Assembly (NCBI RefSeq): GCF_009914755.1
Contig: NC_060945.1
DNA from: the human T2T-CHM13v2.0 reference genome, Homo sapiens
Reading direction: 5' to 3' (one strand)
Length of the DNA stretch: 64,000 nt
Numbering within the stretch: the stretch's first letter is position 1; each line of letters starts with the position of its first letter. Shown here one piece after another: positions 33,395 through 52,569 of this stretch. Below the pieces are notes generated by a model. The model did no database searches. It saw only the letters and a list, made by a program, of their open reading frames with translations, and had not been told where the DNA came from. The position numbers and the translations under genes were made by a program.

Positions 33395-33765
33395 GATGTG
33401 GTTTGGCTGTGTCCCCACCCAAAATCTCAACTTGAATTATAATCTGAATTATAATCCCCATGTGTTGGGGGAAGGACCTGGTGGGAAGTGATTGGATCAT
33501 AAGGGCGGTTGCCTCATGCTGTTCTTGTGGCAGCGAGTTCTCGTGCGATGTGCTGGTTTTATAAGAGACCTTCCCCACTTCACTCTGCACTTCCCTCTCC
33601 TGCTGCCATGTGAAGAAGGACGTGTTTGCTTCCCCTTCCTCTATGATTGTAAGTTTCCTGAGGCTTCCCCAGCAATGCAGAACTGTGAGTCAATTAAGCC
33701 TCTTTCCTTTATACATTACCCAGTCTCAGGCAGTTGTTTAAAGCAGCGTGAGAATGAACTAATAC
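33395..33765 (+). mobile_element. THE1/MSTA solo LTR, full length
   Basis: TGATGTGGTTTGGCTGTGTCCCCACCC...TTTTATAAG...CCCCAGCAATGCAGAACT|GTGAGT...GAACTAATAC. Confidence 0.88.
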
Positions 33766-33904
33766 GCTGTGGAAACCAAGTGAAATGATTTGAGCTCCCA
33801 AGGAGAGATGGCAGCAGGGATAGCCAAACCCTGGGGCAGTGCCCACTCTGAAGACAGAGCCCTGGCTGTGCCTCCCTATGGGAAGCAGCTAGGGAGGTTT
33901 TGTT

Positions 33905-44889: not shown

Positions 44890-45475
44890 AGAGCCCCCAA
44901 GACCACTTTCCCCTCTGATACCAATTTAAAGTTTAGGGGTCCCCACAACCACCTTCAAGTTCAATAATCCACTTGGTGGACTCGCAGAACGTACTGAAAG
45001 CTATTATACTTATACTTACAGTTTATCATAGCAAAAGGACACAGATTAACATCAGCCAAGGGAAGACACACATAGGGCAGTGTCCAGGAGAGCTTCCAGC
45101 AGTCCTCTCCCAGTGGAGTAATGGACTCCTTCTGGAAACTATATGCACGGACTATATACATGGAGTATTGCCAACCAAGGAAACTCACCAGGCTGTTGGT
45201 GTCCAGAGTGTATAGTAGGGCTTGGTCTTGTGGACATGGCTGGCTTGACCTTAGTCTATTCCTTCAGGGGTCAAGCTGATATGGTGTGGCCAAATCTCCC
45301 ACCATAAATCACATTGGTCTAACATGTTGTGTCTGTTTGGCATGGCCCATGGCCTCCAGGTAAACACAGTGCTATTATCAAGCAGGACATCTAAGGGCTT
45401 AGAGATCACCTCCCAAGAGCCAAGGGCAAAGCCCAGATCTCACTTCAAGTAAGCTTAAAATTCTTTACTACACAA
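44890..45475. mobile_element. MER21/MER77-type LTR
   Basis: GGGGTCCCCACAACCACC...GGACACAGATTAACATCAGCCAAGGGAAGA...TTCTTTACTACACA. Confidence 0.65.
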
Positions 45476-46746
45476 CACCCTTTCCTTGTTACAGGAGAGT
45501 GGGGGTGCCCTGCTGGCCCTCACAGAGGAAGAGCTCATAACTCATAACCCACAAAACTGTAATGAAGGGCAATCCCATCCGACTGAAAAATGGGACTGGA
45601 AACAGGCACTGAACATTCCAGAAGGAAAGAGAGGGGCACAGGGGAGCGCGTAAGTGGATTTAATGATGGCTAGTCTACAAGAAAAAGTGCAATCGATTCA
45701 GGTTATTGAAAATTCACCCCCAATATTTTCCTCTACTCATCAAACGTGGAAGAAAGGGGCTCATTGGAGCTTGCTCATGGCTCGCATCAGGGCCAGCCGG
45801 CCTGTCTTGTTCTCTGATTATAACATCAAGGACCCCTAGGTGGTGCTGATTTCTAGCTTGGGTGGCAAATAGTTAACAACAACAAAAAAGGAATCTGAAA
45901 GTTCAGCAAACCTCTTCTTTTTTTTTCAAACTTTTTTGTTTTTGATTAAGCACATTCCACAGTACAAAGCTGTCATGAATAATATCTGTACAATTGAACA
46001 GTTTCAATAGCTGTTCAGACACAAATTTATTTCAAACAAATAATTGGCAAACATAATTAACTACAAGTTAGAATTAGACTATCCCAGTGCTTTAAAACAT
46101 TAATATAGCAGTAATTTACATTTGCTCAATTATGGTTAGCAAAATAAAGTCCAGAGTATGGCTGGGAATTTACTATTATAATCCCAGAAAGTCAGAATTC
46201 CTTGGGTGCCAAAGTCCCTTGCTATAATTTAGTAGGAACAATTCAAAGGTTGTGTACATATTCAAAGGCCATGATCTCCCAAGGAACAAGGGGGACTTCT
46301 ATATTAAACAAGCAAAAACAACAAAAAATCTATTCATTCATTCCGAATTGTCTCCTCCTCTGCCCCTACCTTCCCCCTGGGCTTTCCTGAGCAGTTTGAT
46401 ATTGAAGTTGTAGGACGAAAAGAGGTCAAAACTAAATCACTTTCACAACCACCATCAAGCTTACAACATCTGCCTTATGAATGGAGGTTTATTGTTTACG
46501 CTTTGAGACTCAACTTCTCAAAAACATAAATTAGTAACATGGGAAGGAAGGATTTTTTTTAAGAAAAACTAAAAAAGCAAAGCCAACTCGATAAATCACA
46601 TACACACACATTGATCCCCACACCGTTCTCAATGCAAAGGACAAATCGGAGCCCAAGGACCTTCCCTTTAGTAGTAGAGCATGCTTCCACAGGAAGAGGT
46701 TTAATTTATAGGAGGCTGTTTATTGGTCCTTTAAAATGCTATTGAT

Positions 46747-47040
46747 GGCCGGGCACGGTGGCTCCCAAAGTAATCCCAGCACTTTGGGAGCCTGAGGCAG
46801 GCGGATCACAAGGTCAGGAGTTCGAGACCAGTTCGGTCAATATAGTGAAACCCCGTCTCTATTAAAAATGCAAAAATTAGCTGGGTGTGGTGGCACGTGC
46901 CTGTAGTCCCAGCTACTTGGGAGGCTGAGGCAGGAGAATCACTTGAACCTGGAGGTGAGGAGGTTGCAGCGATCTGAGATTGCGCCACTGCACTCCAGCC
47001 CGGGCTACAATGCGAGACTCTGTCTCAAAAAAAAAAAAAA
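46747..47040 (+). mobile_element. AluS inserted in the pseudogene 3'UTR
   Basis: Full Alu with degenerate TSD aaaatgctattga / aaaagttattga. Confidence 0.9.
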
Positions 47041-47125
47041 GTTATTGACATTCCTTGATCTTTGGAAACAACGGCAAAGGGCAAATCAAACCTAATATTG
47101 AATAAGGGAGAAGGAGTGCCAACTG

Positions 47126-47211
47126 GATGCCAATGTCCTTTCCATGCACTGTCAGGGTGATAGTGCCAGATGCCAACGTCCTTTCCATGCACCATCAGGG
47201 AGACAGTGCCA
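47126..47211. repeat. 43-bp tandem duplication (2 copies) in the pseudogene 3'UTR
   Basis: gatgccaaYgtcctttccatgcac...caggg.ga.agtgcca twice. Confidence 0.85.
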
Positions 47212-48029
47212 TTTACACATTTGGGCTGTGTACTCGGGAGTACTCGGGAGCTTTGAGAACCTGCTGAGGCCGCAGCAGCACGTGACACCAGAGATGACTG
47301 GGGTGGGATTCATGGACTTGAGGCTTTACACCACTTAGGAGTGCCCTCCCCTCAGCATGGACCTCTGAACCAGCCTGACCTGACCTGCAGGCTCCAACAC
47401 ACCAGCGGGCCCTGCCAGAACCTTGGCAAGGACAGGATGCATGAATTCCAGAGCCAGGACAGCCCGTCAATAGGGCCTTATTATTTCCCCTTCCCAGGGC
47501 CACAACTGCACAGAATAATGATTTTTGACAGTGAAGCCAAATGAATACTACGGGAAGTGACCACTAGTACTCAGGAGTACTTATGAGAAAAAGAATAAGA
47601 ACAAAAATGTTTAAGTTACCTCTCTATTGTATAATATATACTGTACAACAAATAAAACATTCATGTTCAACTTTAGAAATTACATTTTAAAACAAGATTC
47701 TCCTTAAAAACACACACAAACCACACACACAATGACAACAAAATAAAAACACTGTAGGAATACTGCAGGAAGGGTTCCAGGTAATCCACATCAACCCTGG
47801 TATCAGGTTCTTGAGTCCAGTCCATGGCTAAGCGCGAACACACTCTGTATTAGTGTCTCAAGTGCAGGGGGCCCTGACCCCAGCAACTTTGAAGTTAAAC
47901 TGTTATGTACATTATATCTACATGTGAATACAGTATTTTAAATTAGGAGGCAAGCACACATATAAAGGTGTTACTCTACCAAATATCAGGAGATGGTTGC
48001 GGTTCAGAGAACAGTTAATAAAAGGGCTA

Positions 48030-48123
48030 ACCCCCATGGCACGTGTATACCTATGTAACAAAAGTGCACGTTCTGCACATGTATTCCAGAACTTAAAATA
48101 TAATTTAAAAAAATTAAAAATAA
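48030..48123 (+). mobile_element. 5'-truncated L1PA 3' end (~95 bp) inserted in the pseudogene 3'UTR
   Basis: CATGGCACGTGTATACCTATGTAACAAA...GCACATGTATTCCAGAACTTAAA plus A-tail; TSD aataaaagggcta / aataaaagagcta. Confidence 0.85.
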
Positions 48124-48156
48124 AATAAAAGAGCTATGTTGGGAGATAATAACTGA

Positions 48157-48470
<314 letters not shown>

Positions 48471-50635
48471 AACTGACTTACAGTTCTTTAAATTAAAAGA
48501 AATTGGTATAGAAAGGAAGTATAATCCAAAACATATTACTAAAACGACCCAGAGAGATTTTTCCATTGTCCAACATGTTCCTAATACAGCAAGTCAAAAT
48601 TCATAATGACTTGGACGGTCAAAAGGAGAATGTTAACTTTTGAAAATGAAAGCCGTGGACATTCTGAGTAGGTGTTTGGCACCCAAAATTTCACTGAAGA
48701 AGAATGCTGTTTCTTAGTATCAAACCAAAGTGCAAAGCAATATAAATTAGAGGCCAAGACTTCTCTTGGCGTCAATTTACTTCTGTAAAACAGATTCTAT
48801 GTTCCTTTTCTATGATCAGTTTACATTTGAAACATTAGATTTTTTCACTAATGAGGGAAGGAAATGGGCTTCTGTGCTACTTTCAAGTCAGTGAAGCTAA
48901 GGTCTCCTTCTCAAAGTAGAGCTGGAATCAGAGGTGAGAAATGTCGGGACTTGAAGAGTTAGGCTGCTTTGCATCTACCCAGCGTCTAGAACCAATTCCA
49001 GCTTCATAACTCAGCTGTGAACGAACTCCCTTAGGCATTGGTAGCCACGTAGCCAGTAGTTCAAGACTAGAAAACCCGGAAACGGGTGAAAGTGCAGACT
49101 GTTATCTAGAGATGTAAGTGTATGTTCTGGAGGGGGAATGGGTCTCATTCTGGGCACTGGGAGGCACATTTAAGAAACCACAAATCAAAATAGTGTCATC
49201 ATGGGAGCTGCTGACGATTTGAAACTCATCAAACTGTAGGCAAAACACATGTCCAGAATGTTCCACCAATGTGCGCAAACACAATGTGCTTGCTGGGGCT
49301 CGAGGGTCAAGAGCGGCTTGCAAGTCCTAAACTTTAATTTTCCCATCATAGGCCCGGCTGACCATCCTCTTGTTATCAAACTGGATGCATCGGACCAATT
49401 CTTCATGTCCCTCTAGGACTCTTAAACAGGAGCCACATTCAATATCCAAGAGCCTAATGGTATGATCTGATGATCCACTAACAACCAGCCCATCCCTGTA
49501 CTGGAGACAAGACTCGCTTGTGCCCATTGAGAGTACGAGCAAATTCACAGGTGCTCATGCTCCAGACTTTGATGGTCCTGTCACCAGAGGCAGACACGAT
49601 GTATTTCTCGTCAAAGTCTACTACGTTGACAGCAGCTCAGTGGACAACCAGGACACCACGTAAAGTGATATCGGTCGCAGAAGCCATGTCCCACACAGCA
49701 ATGGAGCGGTCCTTGGAACAGGTCACCATCAGTCCACTGCTGAAGCGTAAGTGCAGTACATCCTCATTGTGGTGGATTAATGTGTTAAGAACTTCACCCG
49801 TGTTCACTTCCCACACTCTCACCGTAGAATCCGAAGAGCCAGTTACAATGACACGCTCATCCTACTGCAGATAGAGGACAGAACCTGTGTGGCCATTAAC
49901 ACTTTCAAACATTCCAGGCTGGTTTTATCCCAAATCTTAATTATCTTGTAGGCCACTGATAATTTTTTCATCATCGTACTGTAAACCATAGACACCTTTA
50001 CTATTTTCAGAGTGGTACTGAATCCTCTGCAAGCTGTGTCGGCCACACCGCTAGGTGGATTCTATAGTCTCTATATCCTGGATAATGTTTGGGTATAATG
50101 ACCTATAAAATGAATTTGGAGGGCTAGATATGGGTCTGTTTTGAAACAGGTACTGATCCCACCCTCTTCTTTCTGAAAGTCCTTTCCATAGGGGATCAGT
50201 GTGTACCATTCGTTCAATCAGCTTCTTCCAAAGCATTCATTCTGAGATCAATCCCTGCCATCCTTTACATACCAGCTCTGCTGCACACAGAGACCTGGTA
50301 ACCAGGTACAAAAGAATGTTTTCTGCTATGTGATCTAAGCCTTGCTCGGGTAAAGCAGTAATAAAGTCCTGCTGCAACATGGGCTTCAGGTAAGAGTTGA
50401 TACGTCCATGGTGATAATGACACATTCGTGAAATAAGATGTTCCACAAATTCCAACTGATCTGATTCAGACCCCTGGTTAAAATATTGAATATACAAGTC
50501 TTTTTCTTTTTGGTAGTTTCCTTCTGATGGCCTCTTTCTGGAGATGATCACAAATGATGTTCCATTACTTATCTGCCAAGGAGTATTTTTCTTTGGGGAC
50601 TTATCTTCATCTTGATCTTCCAGAACTGAAGTGTT

Positions 50636-50774
50636 AGTTCCACATGGCTGGGGAGGCCTCATAATCACGGCAGAAGGCAAGGAGGAGCAGGTCACATCTT
50701 ACGTGCAATGGCAGCAAGCAAAGAGAGAGAAGCTTGTGCAGGGAAACTCCCCTTTTTTAAAAACATCCGATCTC
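50636..50774 (-). mobile_element. THE1 (THE1C/D-like) MaLR LTR fragment fused to the 5' end of the FBXW11 retrocopy
   Basis: Minus strand reads GAGATCGGATGTTTTTAAAAAAGGGGAGTTTCCCTGCACAAGC...GAGGCCTCCCCAGCCATGTGGAACT, matching the THE1 LTR up to its GT(A/G)AGT donor. Compare the related full LTR at 33395-33765. Confidence 0.9.
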
Positions 50775-50776
50775 AA

Positions 50777-52569
<1,793 letters not shown>

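What the first reader, a model, noticed from the sequence alone, without database searches (positions are those of the whole stretch)
50570..50774. Fossil LTR-spliced chimeric mRNA: THE1 LTR donor joined in frame to an internal FBXW11 exon at the 5' end of the retrocopy
Seen: on the minus strand the junction at 50636/50635 reads ...GTGATT ATG AGG CCT CCC CAG CCA TGT GGA ACT | AAC ACT TCA GTT CTG GAA GAT ([16 protein letters not shown]). The LTR stops exactly where MaLR LTRs carry a GT(A/G)AGT donor; the intact related LTR here reads GAACT|GTGAGT at 33680-33690. The rest of the LTR 3' end is absent at the other end of the retrocopy, so it did not simply insert into an LTR. Knowledge (recalled): NTSVMEDQNEDESPKKNTLWQ is a discrete alternatively spliced phase-0 FBXW11 exon after exon 1 (MEPDSVIEDKTIELM) and exon 2. 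MaLR LTRs act as oocyte/early-embryo promoters supplying first exons, donors and ATGs (e.g. mouse MT-driven oocyte Dicer). Inference: two independent splice boundaries coinciding at one nucleotide means the retrotransposed mRNA was a THE1-exon-to-FBXW11 isoform in the primate germline. That implies an LTR-derived alternative 5' exon or promoter in parental FBXW11 and an N-terminally swapped beta-TrCP2.
Basis: partly seen in the sequence, partly recalled or inferred. Interest (0 to 1): 0.9.

Follow-up and report, generated by a model that had tools for sequence, protein, structure and literature searches.

The report
Fossil of a THE1-spliced FBXW11 mRNA
A dead retrocopy of the FBXW11 gene on chromosome 21 preserves an old messenger RNA in which a retroviral-type repeat inside FBXW11 was spliced onto the gene's third exon, a neat but not unprecedented record of repeat-driven isoform variety.

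Summary
On the minus strand, 139 nt of a THE1-type LTR (50774-50636) end in TGGAACT and are joined directly to the FBXW11 'NTSV' exon (50635 onward).

The best genome-wide match of the LTR piece is a sense-oriented solo THE1 LTR in FBXW11 intron 1 (92.8% identity; the 38 other scored copies reach at most 90%). It groups with the chr21 piece in a tree of 30 copies (support 97/91) and reads GGAACT|GTAAGT at the junction. The parental exon starts at AACACT, just after a pyrimidine tract and TAG.

So a spliced THE1-exon-to-exon-3 FBXW11 mRNA, polyadenylated at the normal site, was retrocopied. This happened roughly 30-55 Myr ago.

Promoter use by the LTR is not shown. The piece starts at LTR position 138, upstream of the TATA-like box. 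The true 5' end is lost next to an Alu that has no target-site duplication.

The 11-codon in-frame LTR ORF and the GT donor are still intact in the parent. They are also both intact in 17 of 28 other copies, so this says nothing about selection. No paper or supplement searched mentions the isoform.

Verdict: a new example of a known kind, of moderate interest.

The parts
50636..50774 (-). THE1-type LTR piece, 139 nt. It corresponds to positions 138-276 of the 359-nt source LTR in FBXW11 intron 1. It contains the TATA-like TTTTTAAAAAAGG and the ATG-bearing 11-codon stretch, and ends at the last exonic base before the LTR's GT donor.
   Evidence: 129 of 139 bases identical to G000:C5:172518089-172517951 (-). 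Sister to that LTR in a 30-copy tree, support 97/91. LTR coordinates.
50635..50636 (-). Fossil splice junction: LTR donor site joined to the FBXW11 exon 3 acceptor site.
   Evidence: Parent LTR reads GGAACT|gtaagt. Parent exon reads ccccctag|AACACT. The retrocopy reads GGAACT|AACACT. The word is unique in the genome.
50573..50635 (-). FBXW11 exon 3 (the 'NTSV' exon), 63 nt, phase 0.
   Evidence: 59 of 63 bases identical to C5:172454703-172454641.
49077..50572 (-). Ten further FBXW11 coding exons joined without introns. Window boundaries: 50347, 50160, 50069, 49936, 49818, 49568, 49454, 49343, 49264, 49077. The frame is dead.
   Evidence: Every exon maps to C5 with AG...GT borders. Per-exon identity is 92.5-97.5%. 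There are 3 frameshifting deletions (5, 1 and 5 nt) and 5 in-frame stops; 57 codons changed the residue and 26 did not.
45926..49076 (-). Last FBXW11 exon (3' UTR, 2413 nt in the parent), ending at the parental poly(A) site. It is interrupted by later insertions: an Alu with one duplication copy at 48153-48470, a repeated L1-like fragment at 48025-48127, extra sequence at 47158-47202 that reads as a tandem duplication, and an Alu at 46739-47041.
   Evidence: 2382 aligned bases at 94.6% identity, with the insertions listed. The parent reads AATAAA...GTTTGA|CTTTTG, whereas the copy reads GTTTGA followed by A-rich sequence. The duplication flanking the Alu is read.
45910..45925 (-). Remnant of the poly(A) tail (A9 then GAAGAGG).
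   Evidence: It follows the last base that is homologous to the parental mRNA.
50777..51065 (+). Alu whose head abuts the LTR piece. It has no target-site duplication and marks the place where the retrocopy's original 5' end was lost or never copied.
   Evidence: Read. The spacer beyond it is not homologous to the parent LTR (score 14.0 against shuffles 12.7 +/- 1.7). No duplication of 10 nt or more was found for the retrocopy.
33395..33770 (+). It reads GAACT|GTGAGT at 33680-33690. Its ends are approximate.

Best explanation
FBXW11P1 is an L1-type processed pseudogene made from a spliced, polyadenylated FBXW11 transcript whose upstream exon came from a solo THE1 LTR. That LTR lies in sense orientation in FBXW11 intron 1, 28.5 kb below exon 1.

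The LTR supplied the 5' splice donor (GGAACT|GTAAGT). It also supplied an ATG 33 nt upstream that reads in phase 0 into the gene. Splicing skipped alternative exon 2 and joined the normal acceptor of exon 3; the rest of the mRNA was normal.

The copy landed on chr21 in the simian germline or early embryo, roughly 30-55 Myr ago, and has decayed neutrally since.

Shown: the source LTR, both splice borders, the intronless chain of 12 FBXW11 exons, the poly(A) site and the decay.

Inferred: L1 as the copying machine, the age, and the place where the RNA started. My reading is that the RNA began upstream of the LTR's own start site. It was therefore either an alternative first exon with an upstream start or an internal cassette exon. 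In either case the LTR acted as exon and donor rather than as a proven promoter.
For: Source LTR:
- Of the 40 places scored (3177 first-look candidates), one is the query itself. The best other match is C5:172517951-172518089 (-), at 93% and 206 bits. The remaining 38 are at 88-90% and at most 179 bits.
- In one search, a tree of the chr21 piece plus 29 genomic copies pairs it with that LTR (ultrafast bootstrap 97, SH-aLRT 91). That pair sits on the longest inner branch (0.031).
- The LTR is a 359-nt solo LTR flanked by a 5-bp repeat.
- It lies between exon 1 (starting at C5:172546816, inside a CpG island) and alternative exon 2 (C5:172498034). It is 63 kb above exon 3, on the gene's strand.
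- A uniformly placed best hit would fall in that 92-kb interval, in sense orientation, with a probability of about 1.5e-5 (my arithmetic).

Splice borders: the donor GTAAGT follows the junction base directly, and the acceptor ...ccccctag precedes AACACT.

The rest of the copy:
- All 13 segments are colinear with AG/GT borders.
- The FBXW11 part is 94.4% identical (221 mismatches in 3941 aligned bases; JC distance 0.058).
- Homology ends at the parental cleavage site, followed by A9.
- The chimeric frame is open in the present parent sequence: 525 codons, with an in-frame stop upstream of the ATG.

Background from papers:
- THE1 LTRs are known to carry a splice donor used in chimeric mRNAs, such as THE1B-CSF1R (PMC5134097, passages).
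- They start transcripts in human oocytes (PMC6102241, passages).
Against: - No target-site duplication was found: there is no shared word of 10 nt or more between the 77 nt after the tail and the 2.7 kb upstream. One hallmark of L1 insertion is therefore missing.
- The 5' end abuts an Alu that itself lacks a duplication, so the RNA's start cannot be read.
- The LTR piece differs from its source by only 7.2% (10 of 139). About twice the 5.8% of the exons might be expected if both LTR copies drift freely. With 10 differences this is within sampling error.
- The search scored only the 40 best of its 3177 candidates.
- No present-day RNA evidence turned up. FBXW11 is absent from the held supplements of four transcript catalogues. 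These files may be cut, or may use other identifiers.
Confidence: 0.9

Rival explanations
1. Stronger form of the reader's idea: the THE1 LTR's own promoter launched the transcript in the germline, as an LTR-initiated alternative first exon in the manner of oocyte MaLR-driven isoforms.
For: [quoted passage not shown]
- THE1 shows focused start sites and strong reporter activity (PMC12963367, passage).
- DUX4-bound MaLRs act as promoters in testis (PMC3836709, passages).
- A fixed retrocopy must come from a germline or early-embryo RNA.
Against: - The copied piece begins at LTR position 138. That is upstream of the TATA-like TCTTAAAAAGG at about 150-160, and so about 40-50 nt upstream of where a start would be expected. 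The usual TATA-to-start spacing is recalled. PMC10735291 (passage) places the THE1A start only 'upstream of position 204'.
- FBXW11 is not in the held supplements of the oocyte LTR-transcript study (4 files), a RAMPAGE atlas of repeat-derived start sites (3 files), the DUX4 study (7 files) or a preimplantation isoform study (5 files).
Confidence: 0.25
2. The LTR piece was an internal cassette exon of a transcript from the normal FBXW11 promoter. It would enter through an acceptor in the LTR, for example ...CTGTTCTCGTGATAG| at LTR position 123, and leave through the LTR donor. The copy's exon 1 part was later lost.
For: - The piece extends into the U3 part of the LTR, past the expected start site.
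- A pyrimidine-rich stretch ending in TAG lies 14 nt upstream of the first preserved base (read from the LTR printed).
- Sense-oriented LTRs in introns are known to be exonised through acceptor-plus-donor pairs (PMC1794541, abstract and passages).
- The 5' end of the copy is demonstrably not original.
Against: - Such an exon (153 nt) would open with an in-frame TGA after exon 1 (my reading). It would be a poison exon, expected to be rare in mRNA pools.
- No splice-site scoring tool was run.
- No exon 1 sequence is present in the window next to the piece.
Confidence: 0.35
3. The retrocopy, truncated by chance at the start of exon 3, inserted into or beside a THE1 LTR already resident on chr21.
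For: THE1 LTRs are very common: more than 37,000 loci (PMC5134097, passage). Another MaLR LTR lies in the same window.
Against: - The piece is closest to the LTR inside the parent gene, and is its sister in the tree.
- It stops exactly at the donor while the gene part starts exactly at an acceptor.
- Neither LTR remainder is found on either flank above shuffle level. The one score of 18 against a shuffle maximum of 17 is a weak antisense match 600 nt away.
Confidence: 0.01
4. During L1 reverse transcription the enzyme switched template from a truncated FBXW11 mRNA to another RNA holding the intron-1 LTR, such as pre-mRNA. This would be a chimeric retrogene of the template-switch type.
For: Both parts lie in the same orientation, as in such chimeras. 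The lack of a clean 5' end leaves room for unusual insertion events.
Against: A switch has no reason to fall on a GT donor on one RNA and on the first base after an AG acceptor on the other, with no shared or filler bases. Ordinary splicing explains both borders.
Confidence: 0.02

Closest known systems
Processed pseudogenes as fossils of old splice variants (Shemesh, Novik, Edelheit, Sorek 2006, PNAS). I saw only its entry in the reference list of PMC5470649. The paper itself is not held, so its content is recalled.
   Same: An intronless copy preserves the exon structure of an mRNA that existed when it was made, including an isoform not otherwise recorded.
   Different: Here the preserved variant is a repeat-gene chimera. 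Its upstream exon is an LTR that can still be located in the parent's intron.
THE1B-CSF1R and other LTR-donor chimeric transcripts (PMC5134097, passages)
   Same: A solo THE1 LTR upstream of a coding exon supplies a splice donor that joins a downstream gene exon.
   Different: In CSF1R, 5' RACE showed that the LTR starts the transcript, and the protein is unchanged. Here the start is unknown, the LTR would replace the first 15 codons with 11 of its own, and the evidence is a genomic fossil rather than RNA.
MaLR-initiated oocyte isoforms, such as mouse MT-driven Dicer (mentioned in PMC6102241, passages)
   Same: A MaLR-family LTR in an intron, in sense orientation, with a consensus donor, giving an N-terminally altered isoform in the germline.
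   Different: Promoter use is not shown here and is disfavoured by the extent of the piece. No expression or function has been demonstrated.
Template-switch chimeric retrogenes of L1 (recalled from work by Buzdin and colleagues; no paper opened)
   Same: Two unrelated sequences fused in the same orientation inside a single retro-insertion.
   Different: Those junctions fall at arbitrary positions. This one sits on a donor-acceptor pair, and both parts come from a single gene locus.

Membership tests
L1-mediated processed pseudogene (retrocopy) | Colinear with the mature mRNA, all introns removed | tested here: met
   12 FBXW11 exons plus the LTR exon are joined at AG/GT borders of the parent.
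L1-mediated processed pseudogene (retrocopy) | Ends at the parental poly(A) site with an A tail | tested here: met
   Homology stops at GTTTGA, 15 nt after AATAAA. A9 plus A-rich bases follow.
L1-mediated processed pseudogene (retrocopy) | Flanking target-site duplication | tested here: not met
   No shared word of 10 nt or more. The 5' end abuts an Alu that has no duplication, so later loss is plausible but not shown.
L1-mediated processed pseudogene (retrocopy) | Lies away from the parent gene and decays neutrally | tested here: met
   The copy is on chr21 and the parent on chr5. It has 5 stops and 3 frameshifts; 57 codons changed the residue and 26 did not.
LTR-gene chimeric transcript through an LTR splice donor | LTR sequence ends at the LTR family's donor | tested here: met
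   The source LTR has GTAAGT after the junction. Of 29 genomic copies, 21 have GT there and 17 have GTAAGT.
LTR-gene chimeric transcript through an LTR splice donor | Gene part begins at a genuine acceptor | tested here: met
   ttttcccccccctag|AACACT.
LTR-gene chimeric transcript through an LTR splice donor | Source LTR lies upstream of that exon, on the gene's strand, at the parent locus | tested here: met
   C5:172518226-172517868 (-) lies in intron 1.
LTR-gene chimeric transcript through an LTR splice donor | Transcription starts in the LTR (needed for the label 'LTR promoter') | tested here: inconclusive
   The piece starts at LTR position 138, above the TATA-like box, and the 5' end is lost. 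The expected start position rests on recall and on the passage.
LTR-gene chimeric transcript through an LTR splice donor | The junction is seen in RNA | not testable with these tools
   No RNA data are available here. The gene name is absent from four held supplement sets.
THE1 (ERVL-MaLR) LTR | LTR of about 350 nt with TG...CA ends, a 5-bp flanking repeat, and very many relatives | tested here: met
   359 nt, TGATATGG...GATACA, flanked by CAAAT on both sides. 3177 first-look candidates in the genome.
THE1 (ERVL-MaLR) LTR | Match to a curated THE1 subfamily consensus (A, B, C or D) | not testable with these tools
No repeat library was on hand.
L1 template-switch chimeric retrogene | Junction at an arbitrary point between two independent RNAs | tested here: not met
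   The junction coincides with a donor and an acceptor of a single gene.

The most novel reading that the evidence does not exclude
The THE1-to-exon-3 transcript is not just a past accident but a lasting germline or early-embryo isoform of beta-TrCP2. Its first 15 residues would be replaced by 11 LTR-encoded ones, and it would still be made in living simians from the intact donor and ATG in intron 1. It would have been abundant enough, tens of millions of years ago, to be caught by L1.
Probability: 0.12. Interest if true: 0.6.

Novelty: new member of a known kind. Interest (0 to 1): 0.4.

Why it matters
It is a clean, datable record of a repeat-gene chimeric mRNA. It shows that an intronic THE1 LTR was already feeding its splice donor into a core ubiquitin-ligase gene early in simian evolution.

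It gives an exact junction, and an exact parental exon end (T2T-CHM13 chr5:172,517,951), to look for in oocyte, embryo, testis and placenta RNA.

It shows that retrocopy 5' ends can be mined for past repeat-derived exons.

It corrects the extent of FBXW11P1. The copy spans 45926-50774, whereas the annotation covers 49032-50635.

It does not change what is known about how LTRs or retrocopies work.

Tried and rejected
- Target-site duplication: no word of 10 nt or more from the 77 nt after the tail recurs in the 2.7 kb upstream of the copy.
- LTR continuing beyond the abutting Alu: the spacer scores 14.0 against the parent LTR region, with shuffles at 12.7 +/- 1.7. The stretch above the second Alu scores 10.5, with shuffles at 10.8 +/- 1.4. 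An apparent by-eye match was dropped.
- Using an older repeat to reconstruct the empty site: both flanks are single-copy, each matching only itself.
- A first count of bases shared only by the chr21 piece and the parent, among 11 sequences, gave just 3 columns. One of them (ATTATG) turned out to be shared with 5 of the 20 further copies fetched. I therefore rely on the tree and not on that count.
- Automatic choice of exon borders by length alone picked wrong borders at several junctions. It was replaced by a choice based on fit to the retrocopy.
- Papers: 'FBXW11' with 'THE1' gave 1 paper, unrelated by its title and abstract start. 'FBXW11' with 'LTR' and 'chimeric transcript' gave 1 paper, unrelated in its passages. 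'FBXW11P1' gave 5 papers. I opened only PMC10453398, which measures FBXW11P1 by qPCR as a neighbour of SOD1-DT; the other four I judged from their listing.
- Earlier findings of this scan were not open.
- The Shemesh 2006 paper is not held.
- Not attempted: splice-site strength scoring, Alu subfamily typing and protein-family scans. These were either not needed or lacked a library.

Full report
**What is in the window.** On the minus strand, one search shows a repeat piece at 50774-50636 ending ...CCATGTGGAACT. It is followed without a gap by AACACTTCAGTT..., the start of the FBXW11-derived sequence. One search translates the junction as [19 protein letters not shown].

**The source of the LTR piece.** I searched the window's own genome with 50500-50774. 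Of 3177 first-look candidates, 40 were scored. One of these is the query itself. The best other match to the LTR part is G000:C5:172517951-172518089, minus strand, at 93% and 206 bits. The other 38 are at 88-90% and at most 179 bits.
- Read on the minus strand, that place is a 359-nt solo LTR (TGATATGG...GATACA) flanked by CAAAT on both sides. Its coordinates are C5:172518226-172517868.
- At the point where the chr21 piece ends, it reads GGAACT|GTAAGT.
- In a maximum-likelihood tree of the chr21 piece and 29 genomic copies (the 9 loci plus 20 more of its listed hits, fetched), the piece and the chr5 LTR are sisters with support 97/91. They share the longest inner branch, 0.031. The tool notes that the bootstrap had not fully settled.

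**Where that LTR lies.**
- One search places the first three FBXW11 exons of the copy on C5, minus strand, at 172454703, 172451093 and 172440399.
- One search shows the parental exon as ...ttttcccccccctag|AACACT...TGGCAG|gtagga, 63 nt long.
- One search finds exon 1 (the motif given in the finding, followed by GTGAGT) starting at C5:172546816. It sits inside the only CpG island in the 50 kb scanned.
- One search finds the alternative exon 2 at C5:172498034, using a recalled short motif.
- The order on the gene's strand is therefore exon 1, THE1 LTR (28.5 kb further on), exon 2 (20 kb further), exon 3 (43 kb further).
- The LTR is in intron 1, in sense orientation.

**The rest of the copy.**
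- BLAST of 45500-51500 against 170 kb of the parent locus, refined, gives a colinear chain: the LTR piece plus 12 FBXW11 exons (exon 3 to the last), every one bordered by AG and GT in the parent.
- Identity is 92.8% for the LTR piece (10 mismatches in 139). It is 94.4% for the FBXW11 part (221 mismatches in 3941; JC distance 0.058).
- Homology ends at the parental cleavage site, 15 nt after AATAAA, and is followed by A9 and A-rich bases.
- The 3' UTR is interrupted by an Alu with its own duplication, an L1-like fragment, extra sequence that reads as a tandem duplication, and a second Alu.
- The reading frame has 3 frameshifting deletions and 5 in-frame stops. 57 codons changed the residue and 26 did not. 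This is a dead copy.
- The RefSeq span (49032-50635) covers about a third of it.

**What this means.** Both borders of the junction are splice sites of a single gene locus, at single-base resolution, and the LTR piece descends from the LTR in that gene's intron. The simplest account is that a spliced mRNA (LTR exon, then exon 3, then the rest) was reverse-transcribed and inserted on chr21.
- Insertion into a resident chr21 LTR is contradicted by the tree and by the absence of either LTR remainder in the flanks.
- A template switch would not land on a donor-acceptor pair.

**Age.** A JC distance of 0.058, combined with a recalled neutral rate of 1-2 x 10^-9 per site per year, gives about 30-55 Myr. 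THE1 is confined to simians, which sets an upper limit below 70 Myr (PMC10735291, passages).

**What is not shown: the start of the RNA.**
- The piece begins at LTR position 138. That is upstream of the TATA-like TCTTAAAAAGG at about 150-160.
- PMC10735291 says only that the THE1A start lies upstream of consensus position 204. PMC12963367 says that THE1 start sites are focused. The usual 25-30 nt spacing from a TATA box is recalled.
- On that basis the copied RNA began at least about 40 nt above the LTR's own start.
- The present 5' end is not original. It is separated by two bases from the head of a + strand Alu that has no duplication. The spacer beyond is unrelated to the parent. The retrocopy has no duplication either, and both flanks are single-copy. 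An Alu-Alu recombination that removed the 5' end would explain all of this, but I could not test it.
- Two readings remain. One is an alternative first exon with an upstream start. The other is an internal cassette exon entered through an acceptor such as the TAG at LTR position 123. The cassette exon would begin with an in-frame TGA after exon 1.

**The reading frame.**
- In today's parent sequence the LTR supplies ATG ATT ATG AGG CCT CCC CAT CCA TGT GGA ACT, in phase with exon 3. There is an in-frame stop upstream, and the frame is open for 525 codons to the normal stop.
- This is a family trait and not a sign of selection. Of 29 genomic copies, 25 keep an ATG-led open 11-codon stretch and 21 keep GT. 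Of the 28 copies other than the parent, 17 keep both.
- In the tree, the parent LTR's branch (0.049) is longer than the fossil's (0.024). That gives no hint of constraint.

**Literature.**
- No paper in the library links FBXW11 with THE1 or with LTR chimeric transcripts.
- FBXW11P1 appears in 5 papers. I opened only PMC10453398, where it is measured by qPCR as a neighbour of SOD1-DT.
- FBXW11 is absent from the held supplements of a human oocyte LTR-transcript study (4 files), a preimplantation isoform study (5 files), the DUX4 retroelement-promoter study (7 files) and a RAMPAGE atlas of repeat-derived start sites (3 files). These files may be cut or may use other identifiers, and bioRxiv supplements are closed.
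- The general ideas are established. Retrocopies act as fossils of splice variants (Shemesh 2006, seen only as a reference entry, content recalled). THE1 donors make chimeric mRNAs (PMC5134097).

**Verdict.** It is a new example of two known things combined, not a new mechanism. Interest is moderate.

Noticed in passing
window 45926-50774 (-): The RefSeq span of FBXW11P1 (49032-50635) leaves out the whole 3' UTR part of the retrocopy (down to 45926) and the 139-nt LTR exon (up to 50774).
   Followed up: yes
window 48153-48470 (-), 48025-48127, 47158-47202, 46739-47041: Later events inside the retrocopy's 3' UTR: an Alu with a long pure A tail and a duplication of about 17 nt (AGAACTRTAAGTCAGTT), an L1-like repeated fragment, extra sequence that reads as a tandem duplication of about 43 nt, and a second Alu in the opposite orientation.
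   Followed up: partly
window 51135-51336 and 50777-51065 (+): There are two Alus upstream of the copy. The outer one is 5'-truncated and flanked by ATTTTTGCTCT on both sides. The inner one, which abuts the LTR piece, has no duplication, which suggests a rearrangement.
   Followed up: partly
L013 (G000:C1:93228995-93232228) and L024 (G000:C1:157332252-157335620): There are two further FBXW11-derived retrocopies on chromosome 1, at 89% and 78% identity to the model mRNA. Within the fetched stretch the first matches only from inside exon 4 onward, so it says nothing about 5' exons.
   Followed up: partly
29 THE1-type copies (L002-L010, L041-L060): A family-wide trait: an ATG 33 nt before the donor opens an 11-codon frame that ends in phase 0 at the donor (25 of 29 copies), and 21 of 29 keep GT. 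Any such LTR spliced to a phase-0 exon would therefore add a ready-made N-terminus.
   Followed up: yes
G000:C5:172409095-172404400; window 49076/49077: FBXW11 has an intron in its 3' UTR. The stop codon (window 49104-49102) lies 25 nt before the last exon junction, and the retrocopy shows that this intron was spliced out.
   Followed up: yes
window 45277-45332 (+): A weak match to the first 56 nt of a MaLR-type LTR on the opposite strand, 600 nt beyond the retrocopy's tail (score 18 against a shuffle maximum of 17). It appears to be a separate old element.
   Followed up: no
window 33395-33770 (+): A more distant MaLR LTR with an intact GTGAGT donor. It differs widely from the THE1 copies in the region before the donor.
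   Followed up: partly
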